DNA of 39,731 bases from a virus (IMGVR_UViG_2718218171_000002:1-39731); one strand, 5' to 3'. Positions 24,033 to 29,410 are shown, counted from the stretch's first letter. The notes: generated by a model not told the origin, from the letters alone. Program-made: numbers and translations.

Positions 24033-24554
24033 TTATTTCGATATCGTGATGTTGTTTTCCTCGTCAAACTTTCTGATTACTTCTCTCGCCTCTTCGAATG
24101 AAGAACATACTTTTTGCACTCTTGCATTAAGCAGTCGCTTATGAGCGATCCATCTTTTCCGCGTGTTGCAAAAGTAAACTCCAGATATTCCGCTGGAGTT
24201 ATTTTTAGATAGTTTGATTCTATTCCTTTGGTTTGCTGATTTTTTCACAAGACGAAGATTTTCAATTCTGTTGTCGTGGCGAATCCCATTTATATGGTCA
24301 ATTTCCATGCCTTCTGGAATATCTCCGTTAAACATCACCCATACGATGCGGTGTGCTAGCCACTTAATGCCGTTAATTCTTATGCGGATATATCCATTGC
24401 TTTCTAAAAGACCAGCAACTTTCCCAGCGTGTTTTGCATTCCAAACGTTGTGATAGTTGCGATTCTTTTTGTTGTTGAAAAATTCAGAGCTTCTGGCTTT
24501 CCAAACCAAAGAGCCATCGCGGTATTCGAAGTATTCATTCAGTTCCATGCTCAT
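24033..24554 (-). CDS. HNH homing endonuclease (HNH_3 plus AP2-like DNA-binding domain)
   Basis: 173 aa; motif EIDHINGIRHDNRIENLRLV and C-terminal GISGVYF..RKRW; AT-rich; antisense to the late operon. Confidence 0.75.
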   Translation of the reverse strand: MSMELNEYFEYRDGSLVWKARSSEFFNNKKNRNYHNVWNAKHAGKVAGLLESNGYIRIRINGIKWLAHRIVWVMFNGDIPEGMEIDHINGIRHDNRIENLRLVKKSANQRNRIKLSKNNSSGISGVYFCNTRKRWIAHKRLLNARVQKVCSSFEEAREVIRKFDEENNITISK

Positions 24555-24621: not shown

Positions 24622-25917
24622 ATGACTCTCAAAGAAGGGCAGTTAGTTACTTACGCTATCGATGAAATCATCGAAACCATCCAGAACCTGACGCCAATGG
24701 CGTCCAAAGTGACAAAATACACCCCTCCGGCAGAATCCATGCAACGTTCAAGCAACACCGTGTGGATGCCTGTTGAGCAGGAAGCGCCAACTCAGACTGG
24801 CTGGGATTTAACTGGCAACGCAACCGGGATTCTGGAACTCTCCGTGAAATGCAATATGGGCGATCCGGATAACGATTTCTTCGAGCTTCGTGCAGATGAC
24901 CTGCGTGATGAGCGTTCTTACCGTCGCCGCATCCAGGCATCCGCCAAAAAACTGGCGAATAACATTGAGTCAGCGATTGCCAAACAGGCAACTGAAATGG
25001 GCTCGCTTGTTGTTCACGATACCCGCGCAATTGGTCCATCTACTGGCCTGTCTGGCTGGGATTTTGTGTCTGATGCAGAGCGCCTGATGTTCTCCCGTGA
25101 GCTAAACCGCGATATGGGCATCAGTTACTTCCTGAACCCTGACGATTACCGCAAAGCAGGCCGCAACCTGGTAGATGGTGACATCTTTGGGCGCGTTCCT
25201 GAAGAAGCGTATCGTAACGGTACTATTCAGCGCCAGATTGCTGGCTTTGATGAAATTCTTCGCTCACCGAAACTTCCGGCAGTTACCAAGTCAACCGCTA
25301 CTGGTGTAACTGTTTCTGGTGCGCAGAAGTTTAAGCCGCAGGCATACACCCTTGATACCGATGGTAACAAAGAGAACGTCGACAACCGTGTTGCAACGGT
25401 GACCGTATCCTCCACCACCGGATTTAAGCGCGGAGACAAAATCAGCTTCACTGGTGTGAAATTCCTGTCTCAGATGGCGAAGAACGTGCTGACTGATGAT
25501 GCTACTTTCTCAATCACCCGTGTGATCGATGGTACTCACATCGAAATCACGCCGAAGCCGATTGCGCTTGATGACTCTTCACTGACAAAAGAAGAGAAGG
25601 CTTACGCTAACGTAAACACCTCTCTTGCTGATTCCACTCCGGTAAACGTTCTGAACGTGGCAACAACCACCGCCAACGTGTTCTGGGCTGATGACTCAAT
25701 CCGCCTGCTGTCTCAGCCGATTCCGGTAACCCATGAACTGTTTGCTGGCATGAAAACGTCTTCCTTCAGCATTCCTGGTATTGGTGTTAACGGCATCTTC
25801 GCAACGCAGGGTGATATCAATACTCTGTCTGGTAAGTGCCGTATTGCTGTGTGGTATTCAGCATGTGCTGTACGGCCAGAGGCAATTGGTGTTGGTCTGC
25901 CTAACCAGACCGCGTGA
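24622..25917 (+). CDS. 5: major capsid (coat) protein (P22 gp5)
   Basis: 431 aa, P22 coat-like throughout. Confidence 0.9.
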
Positions 25918-25925
25918 TAACCAGA

Positions 25926-25946
25926 GGGAGCTTCGGCTCCCTTTTC
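25926..25946 (+). terminator. intrinsic terminator after coat gene (UUCG tetraloop hairpin)
   Basis: GGGAGC-UUCG-GCUCCC followed by TTTTCTATT. Confidence 0.6.
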
Positions 25947-25960
25947 TATTGGAGATACCA

Positions 25961-26560
25961 ATGAGCGTAATGATTTTTCAGGCTGGCGGAGATACCAAAA
26001 TCTGGGGGCGCAAGCTGAAAACGAAAACCGTTGATCCTGATGATGTAGCTGTGCACTTAGCAAATGGCTGGTATAAGCACCCTGACGATGTTCCTGATGA
26101 TCCTCTTGTTGGTGATCAAATTGGGAATGTTGGCGGAGGTGAAACTTCCCCAGTTGATATGGGCGAAGTGTCCGACGGTTATCACACTTTTAACGAGCTT
26201 TACGCTCACCGAGTGCGACTCTTCTCATCGCTGATGCATGCTTACGCTGAGTTTTCGTGGTGGTCTCGCAAACACAGTGACGGTGAAGAGTGGGATGGCT
26301 GGATCATTGCTGGTATCACCACTCCAGAAGGCGAAATCACTTATCACCTACCTGTTGAAGAAATCGAGTTCCTTCCTGAAGGTACTGAGCTTGAGTTCGG
26401 GAAAGAGTGGGATGGTCATGAAGCAAATGATGTTCTTGGACGACTCCTGAGTTTGCGTCCGGCTATTGCAGAGCCAGAGCCAGAGCCAGAAGAAAAACAG
26501 CGTAAAAAGCCTGGTCGAAAACCTAAGGCGGCAGCAGATGAACCTGACAACGAAGGGTGA
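25961..26560 (+). CDS. hypothetical protein (199 aa) between coat and gene 4
   Basis: ATG preceded by GGAG RBS just after the coat terminator; C-terminal EPEPEPEE plus Lys-rich tail; overlaps gene 4 start. Confidence 0.5.
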
Positions 26561-27038
26561 TTTAGTTCTTGCGGCATTACGTAAGCTCGGTGTGGCATCA
26601 AATGCCACGTTAACCGATGTCGAACCTCAGTCCATGGAAGATGGTGTCAACGACCTTGAAATGATGATGGCTGAATGGCTTGGCGGTGATGCGTCACCAG
26701 GTATCAACGTTGGCTACATTTTCGCTGATGCAGATGTCGCTCCGGATCCGGGCGATGAGCACGGTTTATCAAATAACGCTATCAATGCCGTCATTTTTAA
26801 CCTTGCCTGCCGCATTGCTCCAGATTATGCGCTGGAAGCGTCTGCAAAACTTATAACCACTGCCAGATACGGGAAAGAGCGACTCGTCAAACTGTCTGCA
26901 ATGGATAGGGCAAAAGCCGCTAAATGTAAGTCCGGTTATCCAAACCGTATGCCTGTTGGTAGCGGTAACCAGTTGGCGAAGTGGAACGGTTGGAATTACT
27001 TCCACCGGAAGGAACCTTGCGATAACGGGGGCGAATAA
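26538..27038 (+). CDS. 4: head completion / tail accessory protein (P22 gp4)
   Basis: 166 aa; [25 protein letters not shown] block matches P22 gp4 as remembered. Confidence 0.8.
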
Positions 27039-28457
27039 ATGCCGATTCAGCAACTTCCGCTTATGAAAGGTGTCGGCAAAGACTTCCGAAACGCCGACTA
27101 TATCGACTATCTGCCAGTGAATATGCTGGCTACTCCCAAAGAAATACTCAACAGCAGCGGATATCTTCGCTCATTCCCGGGCATTGCCAAACGTTCTGAT
27201 GTGAACGGTGTATCGCGCGGAGTCGAGTACAACATGGCGCAGAATGCTGTTTATCGCGTTTGCGGTGGCAAGTTGTATAAGGGTGAAAGCGAAGTCGGTG
27301 ACGTCGCCGGAAGTGGTCGCGTATCAATGGCGCATGGTCGAACATCTCAGGCGGTAGGCGTTAATGGTCAACTGATCGAGTATCGCTATGATGGTACGGT
27401 TAAAACCGTCTCAAACTGGCCTACAGACAGTGGATTCACTCAGTATGAGTTAGGTTCAGTTCGCGACATTACGCGCTTACGTGGGCGTTATGCGTGGTCA
27501 AAAGACGGAACTGATTCATGGTTTATCACTGATCCTGAAGACGAATCGCATCCTGACCGTTACAGCGCACAATATCGTGCCGAGTCTCAGCCGGACGGCA
27601 TCATCGGTATCGGGACATGGCGAGACTTCATCGTCTGCTTTGGTTCATCGACTATTGAATATTTCTCCCTTACTGGCGCAACCACCGTTGGTGCTGCTTT
27701 GTATGTCGCACAGCCATCACTGATGGTGCAAAAAGGCATCGCCGGGACTTACTGCAAAACGCCGTTTGCTGATTCGTATGCGTTCATCAGCAATCCGGCA
27801 ACGGGTGCGCCGTCTGTGTATATCATCGGCTCCGGTCAGGTGTCACCAATTGCCAGCGCGAGCATTGAGAAAATCCTCCGCTCCTACACTGCTGATGAAC
27901 TGGCTGATGGTGTGATGGAATCGCTGCGGTTTGATGCTCATGAGTTGCTGATTATCCACCTTCCTCGCCATGTTCTCGTGTACGACGCATCTTCAAGCGC
28001 CAATGGTCCGCAATGGTGTGTACTGAAAACAGGCTTGTATGACGATGTGTACCGCGCTATCGACTTCATTTACGAAGGAAATCAGATAACGTGCGGCGAT
28101 AAGCTGGAATCGGTGAACGGGAAATTGCAGTTCGATATCAGCAGTCAGTATGGGCTTCAACAGGAACACCTGCTGTTTACTCCACTGTTCAAAGCGGATA
28201 ACGCCAGATGCTTCGATCTGGAGGTGGAATCATCCACTGGCGTAGCTCAGTACGCCGACCGCCTGTTCCTCTCTGCAACCACTGACGGCATCAATTACGG
28301 GCGTGAGCAGATGATTGAGCAGAATGAACCGTTCGTTTACGACAAACGAGTTTTGTGGAAGAAAGTAGGGCGCATCAGGAAAAACATTGGTTTCAAATTG
28401 CGCGTTATCACGAAGTCACCTGTCACTCTGTCTGGCGCTCAGATAAGGATTGAGTAA
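27039..28457 (+). CDS. 10: tail accessory protein (P22 gp10)
   Basis: 472 aa, P22 gp10 size and position. Confidence 0.8.
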
Positions 28458-29410
28458 TGGCGGATTCGAATCTCAATGTGCCGGTAACCATTCAGGCCAC
28501 ACGGCTCGATACATCAGTTCTTCCACGCAATATCTTCTCGCAGTCGTATCTGCTTTACGTTATCGCACAGGGCACTGATGTTGGTAACGTGGCTAACAAG
28601 GCTAACGAAGCAGGGAAGGGTGCTTATGATGCACAGGTGAAGAATGATGAGCAGGATGTCACCCTTGCAGACCATGAATCCAGAATTGAAGCTGCTGAAG
28701 CAACTCTCATCAATCATGAAAATAGAATTGCAGCAGCGGAAAGCACTCTTGCAGATCATGAAACAAGGATTACGGCTGCTGAAACAGAGCTGGCTGATCA
28801 CGAGACGCGAATTGCTGCCAATGAATCTGAGTTAGCAAACCATGATGCGCGCATAACTCAGAATACAACCGATATCGACGCACTTGATACCAGGCTCACA
28901 GCGGCAGAGGGAAGTATTTCGACGCTACAAAGCACAGTTGGTGATCACTCAACAAGAATATCTGCGCTTGAGTATGCCACCACGCGCAAGAAATCAGAGG
29001 TTGTTTACTCAGGAGTATCTGTAACCATCCCGACAGCGCCGACCAACCTTGTTAGCCTGCTGAAAACGCTCACGCCGTCATCCGGCACGTTGGCACCATT
29101 CTTCGACACCGTTAACGACAAGATGGTTGTGTTCAACGAGAACAAAACCTTGTTCTTCAAGCTGTCGATCGTCGGGACGTGGCCCAGCGGAACCGCCAAC
29201 AGGTCAATGCAGCTAACCTTTTCAGGCTCTGTTCCTGACACACTGGTAAGCAGCCGCAACTCGGCGACAACGACAGATAACATCCTGTTAGCTACGTTCT
29301 TCAGCGTGGATAAAGACGGCTTTCTTGCCACAAATGGCAGCACGTTAACCATTCAGTCTAATGGTGCGGCGTTTACTGCCACAACCATCAAGATAATCGC
29401 GGAGCAGTAA
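28457..29410 (+). CDS. 26: tail needle protein (P22 gp26-like) with extended C-terminal domain
   Basis: Conserved gp26 N-terminus ([35 protein letters not shown]), heptad coiled-coil repeats, 317 aa vs 233 aa in P22. Confidence 0.75.
28664..28873 (+). repeat. five tandem 42-bp repeats encoding LADHE(S/T)RIxAAExx units
   Basis: Read directly from nucleotide and protein sequence within the needle gene. Confidence 0.7.

What the first reader, a model, noticed from the sequence alone, without database searches (positions are those of the whole stretch)
25921..26560. 199-aa unknown protein in its own cassette between coat and gene 4
A strong UUCG-tetraloop terminator directly follows the coat gene; then comes a 199-aa ORF with its own RBS, a C-terminal EPEPEPEE and Lys-rich tail, overlapping the gene 4 start by 23 nt. 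It may be a conserved but uncharacterised virion or assembly factor, or accessory cargo; I cannot tell which from sequence.
Basis: partly seen in the sequence, partly recalled or inferred. Interest (0 to 1): 0.4.

Follow-up and report, generated by a model that had tools for sequence, protein, structure and literature searches.

The report
Optional WDGH cargo gene after coat
The 199-aa ORF is real: it is the long form of a small, already catalogued, dispensable gene that P22-like phages carry between coat and gene 4, and its extra "WDGH" domain is optional cargo that circumstantial evidence points to as an untested counter-defence module, not a virion part.

Summary
Every detail of the observation checks out: coat stop, UUCG hairpin, GGAG ribosome-binding site, 199-aa ORF at 25961-26560, EPEPEPEE plus a basic tail, and a 23-nt overlap with gene 4.

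The ORF is not new. It is the orthologue, in the same position, of ε34 gene 6, L/ST64T orf186 and ST104 orf54. P22 orf69 and Sf6 gene 6 are short forms. Residues 68-165 are a Pfam WDGH domain (PF25311, function unknown).

The gene has three parts:
- a 45-aa N-domain specific to P22-like phages;
- an optional WDGH insert;
- a hypervariable EP repeat and a basic tail that carries gene 4's ribosome-binding site and start.

Among phages with gp4 at least 98% identical, only about 14% carry WDGH. The rest have 74-104-aa alleles. One relative has lost the gene entirely. P22's truncated version is reported as non-essential.

WDGH is under strong purifying selection (dN/dS 0.04-0.06) and has no solved structural relative. 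Its partners with a described function are all anti-defence modules (Sequestin, Tad2-like, Acb2/Tad1, Lar). In other P22-like prophages the same slot holds free-standing Tad2-like and Acb2/Tad1-like genes.

Best reading: accessory, probably counter-defence, cargo expressed late. The object is already known. The predicted function is new and untested.

The parts
24622..25917 (+). Coat (P22 gene 5 type) gene, left border of the slot
   Evidence: 431-aa ORF. It is 97-98% identical in DNA to the major head genes of phages Dewey, IME10 and APC_JM3.2.
25923..25950 (+). UUCG-tetraloop hairpin plus U-rich tail ('t coat'): a terminator-like or mRNA-stabilising element inside the late operon
   Evidence: Fold. 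A UUCG-loop hairpin lies 3-14 nt after the coat stop in most of the window-type, P22-type and Xenorhabdus-type loci surveyed. The two stem versions, GGGAGC/GCUCCC and GGGGC/GCCCC, differ by compensatory changes. No UUCG hairpin was found in the Sf6-type loci or in 35 P22-type loci. The P22 record annotates a stem_loop at this place and the Sf6 record a 't coat' terminator.
25951..25954 (+). GGAG ribosome-binding site of the ORF
   Evidence: Read from the sequence. It lies 6 nt before the ATG.
25961..26560 (+). 199-aa ORF: long (WDGH) allele of the P22 orf69 / ε34 gene 6 / orf186 gene
   Evidence: PHROG 3769 matches over the full length, E 2.7e-100.
25961..26095 (+). N-domain, aa 1-45 (beta-hairpin plus helix), the part shared with the short alleles
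   Evidence: phrog_1175, E 2e-14. AlphaFold pLDDT 86-96. The family contains only 47-81-aa proteins of P22-like prophages of Enterobacterales. dN/dS 0.09-0.17.
26096..26161 (+). Disordered linker, aa 46-67
   Evidence: pLDDT about 40 at aa 49-61. dN/dS 0.3-0.4.
26162..26455 (+). WDGH domain (PF25311), aa 68-165: the optional cargo module
   Evidence: Pfam 134 bits, E 2e-39. pLDDT 96-98. dN/dS 0.04-0.06. Near-invariant residues are S71 D72 G73 H75 T76 F77 E79 Y81 H83 R84 W100 S102 H105 D107 Y128 H129 W150 D151 G152 H153 R161.
26471..26494 (+). (GAGCCA)3 GAAGAA = EPEPEPEE, a hypervariable hexanucleotide repeat; right-hand junction of the allele swap
   Evidence: Alignment with Dewey, IME10 and APC_JM3.2 regains identity here. 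Copy number ranges from 1 to about 12 among relatives and is always in frame. Matches in E. coli genomes differ in length by ±6 nt.
26495..26557 (+). Basic tail [21 protein letters not shown]; its DNA holds gene 4's ribosome-binding site (TAAGG 26524-26528) and start
   Evidence: The natural deletion in L256 keeps exactly this end, AAGCCTAAGGCGG...ATG.
26538..27038 (+). Gene 4 (head-tail adaptor), right border of the slot; overlaps the ORF by 23 nt
   Evidence: It is 99-100% identical to gp4 in 80 IMG/VR contigs.

Best explanation
The ORF is the long allele of a small late gene found between coat and gene 4 in essentially all P22-like phages.

Shown:
- The gene is a modular fusion. It has a 45-aa N-domain specific to P22-like phages, a disordered linker, an inserted WDGH domain, an EP-repeat spacer of variable length, and a basic tail.
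- The last codons of the tail contain the ribosome-binding site and start of gene 4.
- The WDGH module is optional. Relatives with near-identical coat and gp4 mostly lack it.
- Where present, it is held under strong purifying selection.

Inferred:
- It is transcribed with the late operon by read-through of the coat hairpin, and translated from its own GGAG site.
- Gene 4 translation is probably coupled to its termination.

Inferred from association only:
- WDGH is counter-defence cargo. Most likely it is a small domain that binds or cleaves a nucleotide-type immune signal, or otherwise blocks a host defence.
- It is not a building block of the virion.
- The many invariant His, Asp, Arg and Trp residues fit a catalytic or ligand-binding site. 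Whether it acts as a sponge or an enzyme is open.
For: Identity and synteny:
- Pfam WDGH and PHROG 3769/1175 match.
- The protein is 62% identical over aa 1-165 to ε34 gene 6, L/ST64T orf186, ST104 orf54 and the BTP1 copy, at the same position.
- P22 orf69 and Sf6 gene 6 are short versions behind an annotated hairpin.

Optional module:
- Dewey, IME10 and APC_JM3.2 have 84-88-aa alleles (N-domain + (EP)n + tail; tail identical in IME10 and APC_JM3.2, one substitution in Dewey).
- 11 of 76 IMG/VR loci with gp4 at least 98% identical carry WDGH, one of them partial. 45 of 76 P22-type loci carry it. 0 of 74 Sf6-type loci carry it.
- L256 has lost the whole gene but keeps the hairpin and gene 4's ribosome-binding site.

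Selection: dN/dS is 0.04-0.06 in WDGH.

Association with counter-defence:
- Among 150 representatives of 3651 WDGH clusters, the partner domains recognised by Pfam are Sequestin PF21825 x6, Lar x2, Acb2/Tad1 x1, Tad2-like x1, YodL x1, DUF551 x1 and a zinc ribbon x1.
- Serratia P0098 is a triple fusion, Tad2-like + WDGH + Sequestin.
- Sequestin itself was discovered and validated as a 3'cADPR sponge by exactly this reasoning, 'fused to a known sponge' (10.1101/2025.07.12.664507).
- The same coat-gp4 slot holds free-standing Tad2-like ORFs in Xenorhabdus prophages (L021, L190; E 1e-21 and 3e-24) and an Acb2/Tad1-hairpin ORF in L192 (E 3.6e-18).
- In L202 the slot holds the 'KKPVVIDA...YPCKPDIF' domain, which is fused to WDGH in P0108.

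Not tied to P22 capsids: WDGH genes sit in arrays of small early or accessory genes in Pavtok, SopranoGao, Tsamsa and A511, and next to a NADAR gene in Bacillus phage Nate.

Literature:
- The role of ε34 gene 6 is unknown. The P22 homologue is internally deleted and non-essential. ε34 virion gels differ from P22 only in gp13, the tailspike and a ~15-kDa band (PMC2629481).
Against: - No experiment on any WDGH protein was found.
- Only about 12 of the 150 representatives have a partner that Pfam recognises, so the fusion argument rests on few cases. Domains of phage accessory genes may also be fused simply because they share genomic neighbourhoods.
- Late-operon expression is unusual for a counter-defence protein that should act early.
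- The domain is acidic (net charge -14 here, mean -6.3 across the family), whereas the known sponges described in that paper have positively charged pockets.
- In S. pneumoniae phage IPP66 a stand-alone WDGH gene also lies inside the head module. This could hint at a head-related role.
- The phage L virion mass-spectrometry study lists nine extra proteins that are not all named in the text. Orf186 could be among them.
Confidence: 0.5

Rival explanations
1. It is an assembly or packaging helper, or a minor virion protein. It would be comparable in position to lambda gpFI, which lies between the major head gene and the head-tail joining gene. The N-domain would dock on coat, portal or gp4, the basic tail would touch DNA, and WDGH would be an added functional head-associated domain. 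In that case the protein might be packaged and delivered with the DNA.
For: - The gene position is fixed between coat and the head-completion gene in almost all loci surveyed, and it is coupled to gene 4.
- The N-domain is under purifying selection.
- The layout is a structured domain, a flexible acidic linker and a basic AT-hook-like tail.
- IPP66 also has a WDGH gene inside its head module.
- The L virion mass-spectrometry study found 22 proteins, nine of them not fully listed in the text.
Against: - Most phages with 97-99% identical coat and gp4 lack WDGH.
- L256 lacks the gene altogether.
- P22's copy is non-essential, and ε34 virions show no extra ~21-kDa band.
- WDGH occurs in siphoviruses, myoviruses and jumbo phages with unrelated capsids, mostly among early genes.
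- The Pfam scan at E up to 1 returned only WDGH, so no other family, gpFI-type included, matched.
Confidence: 0.15
2. WDGH is an accessory enzyme or binding protein that has nothing to do with host immunity, for example one acting in nucleotide or cofactor metabolism, or in host takeover. Its fusions to sponge domains would only reflect shared residence in phage accessory gene pools.
For: - Five near-invariant His residues plus Asp, Glu and Arg look catalytic.
- Most WDGH proteins carry extra regions that Pfam does not recognise, some of which match only PHROG families of unknown function.
- Other partners include YodL and DUF551, whose roles are unknown.
Against: - Every partner with a described function is an anti-defence module.
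- The same slot in sister phages holds Tad2-like and Acb2/Tad1-like genes.
- The pattern of sporadic presence combined with strong constraint is typical of arms-race cargo.
Confidence: 0.25
3. The ORF mainly serves as a translated leader that delivers ribosomes to gene 4 after the coat hairpin. The inserted domain would be a neutral or decaying passenger.
For: - Gene 4's ribosome-binding site and start lie inside the ORF's last codons.
- The deletion in L256 preserves just that part.
- The length of the EP repeat drifts freely.
Against: - dN/dS of 0.04-0.06 over 98 codons, with intact reading frames in all 35 distinct long alleles, rules out a decaying passenger.
- The domain family has thousands of clusters outside this context.
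Confidence: 0.05

Closest known systems
ε34 gene 6 / phage L and ST64T orf186 / ST104 orf54 (long alleles); P22 orf69, also named 'uncharacterized 7.7 kDa protein in gp5-gp4 intergenic region'; Sf6 gene 6; HK620 hkbT (short alleles)
   Same: Same position behind the coat hairpin. Same overlap with the gene 4 start. Same N-domain (phrog_1175), WDGH domain and basic tail. 62% identity to ε34 gp6 over aa 1-165.
   Different: This is the E. coli lineage allele, with an EP repeat the Salmonella long alleles (ε34 gp6) lack. At DNA level it is found only in E. coli prophages, not in any isolated phage of the collection searched. Sf6 gene 6 has a different N-domain family, phrog_3251.
Pfam PF25311 WDGH domain (function unknown)
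   Same: Full-length match at 134 bits with all motif residues present.
   Different: Nothing distinguishes it from other members. Here the domain is embedded in the P22-like small late protein instead of standing alone or being fused to sponge domains.
Phage immune-signal sponges and their fusions: Tad2 (PF11195), Acb2/Tad1 (PF24729), Sequestin (PF21825)
   Same: Small phage-only domains, sporadically distributed, often fused to each other. WDGH is fused to all three in other phages, and those families occupy the same coat-gp4 slot in sister prophages (for the published logic).
   Different: No sequence or fold similarity to any of them. The domain is acidic with a His/Asp-rich conserved core. 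No ligand or activity is known.
Lambda gpFI (packaging helper encoded between the major head gene and the head-tail joining gene); comparison from my own knowledge
   Same: Analogous map position, dispensability in the laboratory, and a layout of folded domain plus flexible linker.
   Different: The Pfam scan returned no family other than WDGH. Domain order differs. The WDGH part is absent from most relatives.

Membership tests
Pfam WDGH (PF25311) | HMM score above the gathering cut-off over the whole domain | tested here: met
   134.1 bits against a cut-off of 27; profile positions 1-97 of 97 matched.
Pfam WDGH (PF25311) | Conserved motifs SDGYHTF, ELYxHR, HxDG, TYHLP and WDGH | tested here: met
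   All are present. They are 90-100% conserved in 86 and in 150 homologues.
P22 orf69 / ε34 gene 6 small late gene | Position between the coat hairpin and gene 4, with its 3' end overlapping the gene 4 start | tested here: met
   The same arrangement is seen in the 316 surveyed loci, apart from the near-total deletion (two rows, possibly the same contig).
P22 orf69 / ε34 gene 6 small late gene | N-terminal domain of phrog_1175 | tested here: met
   aa 1-44, E 2e-14. P22 orf69 and the short E. coli allele hit the same profile at 4.5e-31 and 9.4e-37.
Known immune-signal sponges (Tad1/Acb2, Tad2, Sequestin, Acb4) | Sequence match to the family profile | tested here: not met
   The Pfam scan at E up to 1 returns only WDGH.
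Known immune-signal sponges (Tad1/Acb2, Tad2, Sequestin, Acb4) | Shared fold with a solved member | tested here: not met
Known immune-signal sponges (Tad1/Acb2, Tad2, Sequestin, Acb4) | Homo-oligomer with a ligand pocket; binding of a signalling nucleotide | not testable with these tools
   Only monomer prediction is available, and no biochemistry.
Moron (autonomous inserted gene unit) | Own promoter in front and terminator behind | tested here: not met
   No sigma-70-like site lies between 25918 and 25960. The hairpin lies upstream of the ORF, not downstream. The 3' end overlaps gene 4.
Intrinsic terminator | G+C-rich hairpin followed by a U tract | tested here: met
   6-bp G+C core, UUCG loop, then UUUUCUAUU. 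Whether it terminates transcription or only stabilises the coat mRNA cannot be told from sequence.
Virion structural protein of P22-like phages | Present in purified particles | not tested
   Literature only. No extra band of this size was noted in ε34 virions. The table for the L virion mass spectrometry is not held.
Lambda gpFI-type packaging helper | Sequence match to the family profile | tested here: not met
   The Pfam scan at E up to 1 returned only WDGH.

The most novel reading that the evidence does not exclude
WDGH would be a new, widespread family of phage counter-defence domains (more than 3600 clusters at 50% identity) with a fold not yet solved. Its His/Asp-rich core suggests an enzyme, rather than a sponge, that destroys or sequesters a nucleotide immune signal. 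The coat-gene 4 junction of P22-like phages would be a dedicated hotspot where such modules (WDGH, Tad2-like, Acb2/Tad1-like and others) are swapped in and out. In the WDGH case the module is fused to a small late protein that might even carry it into the capsid for delivery with the DNA.
Probability: 0.35. Interest if true: 0.65.

Novelty: already known. Interest (0 to 1): 0.4.

Why it matters
As an object the ORF is ordinary. It is an annotated, conserved hypothetical gene of P22-like phages with a Pfam domain name.

What the follow-up adds is a concrete, testable prediction for a large domain family that has no function assigned. The argument has the same form as the one that recently uncovered the Sequestin sponges, namely fusion to known sponges. 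It is reinforced here by a shared insertion slot in sister phages.

If correct, it would add a new family to the set of proteins with which phages evade signalling-based immunity. It would mark the coat-gene 4 junction as a place to look for further counter-defence genes. It would also explain a long-noted length polymorphism in the otherwise conserved P22 head gene cluster.

Tried and rejected
- Sequence searches for a named function gave nothing: PDB sequences, PADLOC, NCBIfam.
- Literature searches for 'WDGH domain', 'WDGH', 'PF25311' and 'crAss001_48' found nothing relevant.
- I checked whether WDGH is one of the families of Tal et al. 2025. Acb5A (72 aa) and Lockin are unrelated, and the motif DGYHTF is absent from that paper's held supplements.
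- A search with an N-domain profile, run to find other cargo fused to it, returned only 47-81-aa stand-alone proteins among the 120 best of 405 hits listed. This gave no further clue to its role.
- I could not read Casjens & Thuman-Commike 2011, Casjens & Grose 2016, or the phage L virion proteomics table.
- The idea of an autonomous moron with its own promoter was rejected.
- The idea of a decaying pseudogene was rejected.
- An internal start at Met66, used in some RefSeq annotations (P0012, 133 aa), has no well-spaced ribosome-binding site. I did not adopt it.

Full report
**1. What is in the sequence**

The window is a P22-like (Lederbergvirus-type) phage or prophage genome. It has the usual order portal, scaffold, coat, gene 4, gene 10, needle.

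- The coat ORF ends at 25917.
- Six bases later a hairpin begins: AGAGGGAGC-UUCG-GCUCCCUUU, 25923-25944. It has a six-pair G+C core and a U-rich tail.
- A GGAG at 25951-25954 precedes ATG 25961.
- The ORF runs to TGA 26558-26560 and encodes 199 aa.
- The protein ends in [29 protein letters not shown].
- Gene 4 starts at ATG 26538. It encodes 166 aa whose N-terminus aligns with P22 gp4, so the overlap is 23 nt.

No promoter-like site lies in front of the ORF, so it belongs to the late operon.

**2. It is a known, named but uncharacterised gene**

- Residues 68-165 match Pfam PF25311 'WDGH domain' at 134 bits. The whole protein matches PHROG 3769, and residues 1-44 match phrog_1175. All three are of unknown function.
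- A translated search of phage genomes finds 62%-identical proteins at the same map position. These include ε34 gene 6, g341c gene 6, ST104 orf54, SE1 orf56, ST64T and L orf186, and the BTP1 copy.
- In complete E. coli genomes the 701-nt stretch occurs at 98-99% identity in 41 genomes. RefSeq labels it 'WDGH domain-containing protein' or 'hypothetical protein', between 'P22 phage major capsid protein family protein' and 'packaged DNA stabilization gp4 family protein'.
- The ε34 genome paper states that homologues of gene 6 vary in length, that the P22 and Scho1 versions have internal deletions, that the role is unknown, and that the gene is not essential in P22 in the laboratory (PMC2629481, which cites Eppler et al. 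1991).
- The phage L paper calls orf186 'detailed function unknown' (PMC8022706).
- The P22 record annotates the stem-loop and orf69. The Sf6 record annotates a 't coat' terminator and gene 6.

**3. Anatomy: a modular gene with an optional middle**

The closest sequenced phages are Dewey, Louie, IME10, APC_JM3.2, HZ41 and CurroJimenez. They are 96-98% identical in the aligned parts of coat and gene 4 but match only 79% of the region.

The alignment shows why. Identity holds through the hairpin and is lost at the ribosome-binding site. It returns inside the GAGCCA repeat. Between those points the relatives encode only a 45-aa N-domain joined directly to (EP)n and the same tail, giving alleles of 84-88 aa.

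The AlphaFold model (mean pLDDT 85) agrees with this layout:
- a confident beta-hairpin plus helix at aa 1-45;
- a disordered stretch at aa 49-61;
- a very confident alpha/beta domain at aa 68-165 (pLDDT 96-98);
- a low-confidence tail.

**4. How common each form is**

I anchored on gp4 and surveyed 316 loci that contain both coat and gp4. They comprise 173 distinct intervals from GTDB genomes and IMG/VR.

| gp4 type | Loci with WDGH | Loci without |
|---|---|---|
| At least 98% identical to the window | 11 of 76 (one partial) | 65, with alleles of 74-104 aa |
| P22/Salmonella type | 45 of 76 | 31, of the orf69 type |
| Sf6 type | 0 of 74 | 74, with a 61-aa protein |

- In the short alleles of the window type, the EP repeat ranges from one to about twelve copies and is always in frame.
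- The 61-aa Sf6-type protein belongs to another family, phrog_3251.
- One P22-type prophage, L256, has lost the whole gene. It keeps the hairpin and the last nine codons, which carry gene 4's ribosome-binding site.
- The small scaffold gene is thus nearly universal, and the WDGH part is dispensable.
- Part of the tail's conservation (KPKA = AAGCCTAAGGCG) is explained by the gene 4 ribosome-binding site embedded in it.

**5. The domain is functional**

I compared the window with other long alleles that are 77-84% identical in protein. dN/dS is 0.04-0.06 in WDGH, 0.09-0.17 in the N-domain and 0.3-0.4 in the linker. All 35 distinct long alleles are intact.

The family is large. An exhaustive search finds 3651 clusters at 50% identity.

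Near-invariant residues include five His (75, 83, 105, 129, 153), Asp 72, 107 and 151, Glu 79, Arg 84 and 161, Trp 100 and 150, and Tyr 81 and 128. This looks like an active or ligand-binding site. The domain is acidic in all 150 representatives.

**6. What it keeps company with**

WDGH genes occur in phages of Listeria (A511/P100 type), Bacillus (Tsamsa type), Streptococcus, Lactococcus, Staphylococcus, Klebsiella, Erwinia and others. Usually they sit among arrays of small early or accessory genes. In one case the gene lies next to a NADAR gene. In another it lies inside a siphovirus head module.

Of 150 representatives, the partner domains that Pfam recognises are:
- Sequestin/PF21825, six times;
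- Lar restriction alleviation, twice;
- Acb2/Tad1 hairpin, once;
- Tad2-like, once;
- YodL, DUF551 and a zinc ribbon, once each.

A Serratia prophage encodes Tad2-like + WDGH + Sequestin in one 265-aa protein, between its lysis genes and terminase.

PF21825 was shown in 2025 to be a family of 3'cADPR sponges. It was found precisely because it is fused to Tad2 and Acb4 (10.1101/2025.07.12.664507). That study does not mention WDGH.

The coat-gene 4 slot itself gives independent support. It holds other such genes in sister prophages, inserted between the hairpin and the small ORF:
- Tad2-like ORFs in two Xenorhabdus loci (L021, L190);
- an Acb2/Tad1-hairpin ORF in L192;
- in L202, an 83-aa domain that is fused to WDGH in P0108;
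- an unknown 78-aa ORF in L013.

**7. Interpretation**

The steps that are shown:
- orthology with gene 6 and orf186;
- the modular build;
- optional presence;
- strong constraint;
- association with anti-defence modules, both by fusion and by shared slot.

The steps that are inferred:
- late expression by read-through of the hairpin, as in the P22 late operon under gp23 antitermination (established knowledge of P22; the BTP1 lysogen transcriptome does not list the gene among prophage-expressed accessory loci);
- translational coupling to gene 4;
- the counter-defence function itself.

I put about 0.95 on the identity, about 0.8 on 'accessory cargo rather than assembly part', and about 0.5 on counter-defence.

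The main rivals are an unrelated accessory enzyme (0.25) and an assembly, packaging or packaged protein (0.15). Points against my reading are:
- the late timing;
- the acidic surface;
- the small number of informative fusions;
- the lack of any experiment;
- the unresolved phage L virion proteomics.

**8. Verdict**

The universally conserved part, the N-domain plus tail, remains without a role.

Interest is moderate. The value lies in a specific, cheap-to-test prediction for a large family of unknown function, and in recognising the coat-gene 4 junction as an exchange site for counter-defence modules.

Noticed in passing
window 24033-24554 (- strand): A 173-aa ORF on the opposite strand sits between the scaffold and coat genes. 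The equivalent gene in phage Dewey is annotated as an HNH endonuclease. IME10 and APC_JM3.2 have no gene there, and in them scaffold and coat abut. It looks like a homing-endonuclease insertion in the head gene cluster.
   Followed up: partly
window 26471-26488; loci L028-L107: The GAGCCA (Glu-Pro) hexanucleotide repeat in front of the basic tail varies from 1 to about 12 copies among otherwise near-identical phages. It always stays in frame. Matches in E. coli genomes differ in length by ±6 nt.
   Followed up: partly
L021 (about 125-370) and L190 (about 2560-2820), Xenorhabdus prophages: A free-standing Tad2-like (PF11195) ORF of 81-86 aa is inserted between the coat hairpin and the small orf69-type ORF.
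   Followed up: yes
L192 (about 2540-2785): An 81-aa ORF matching the Pfam Acb2/Tad1 hairpin domain (PF24729, 65.9 bits) occupies the same coat-gene 4 slot in a P22-type IMG/VR contig.
   Followed up: yes
L202 (about 2530-2780) and L013 (about 2520-2760): The slot holds two further inserted ORFs. L202 has an 83-aa 'KKPVVIDA...YPCKPDIF' domain with a GTG start (phrog_419/1810/4502). The same domain forms the N-terminus of the WDGH+Sequestin protein P0108. L013 (Kluyvera) has a 78-aa ORF with no family match.
   Followed up: partly
L256 2958-3001: A natural deletion of the whole small gene. Only 42 nt separate coat from gene 4. The hairpin and the last nine codons, with gene 4's ribosome-binding site, are kept.
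   Followed up: partly
L345 6001-6798 (Serratia fonticola prophage): A single 265-aa protein combines Tad2-like, WDGH and Sequestin domains. It is encoded between the lysis cassette and the terminase/portal genes of a prophage with a P22-type portal.
   Followed up: partly
window 28457-29410: The ORF in the tail-needle (gene 26) position is 317 aa and contains repeated 'ADHETRI(A/T)AAE'-like heptad segments. The corresponding gene in Dewey, IME10 and P22 is about 233 aa.
   Followed up: no
L346 2848-4048 (Bacillus phage Nate): A stand-alone WDGH gene overlaps the start of a gene annotated as a NADAR family protein.
   Followed up: no
coat stop +3 to +14 nt in the window-type, P22-type and Xenorhabdus-type loci: The hairpin after the coat gene keeps its UUCG loop across genera, while the stem switches between GGGAGC/GCUCCC and GGGGC/GCCCC, which are compensatory changes. 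Sf6-type phages and 35 P22-type loci have no UUCG hairpin there.
   Followed up: partly
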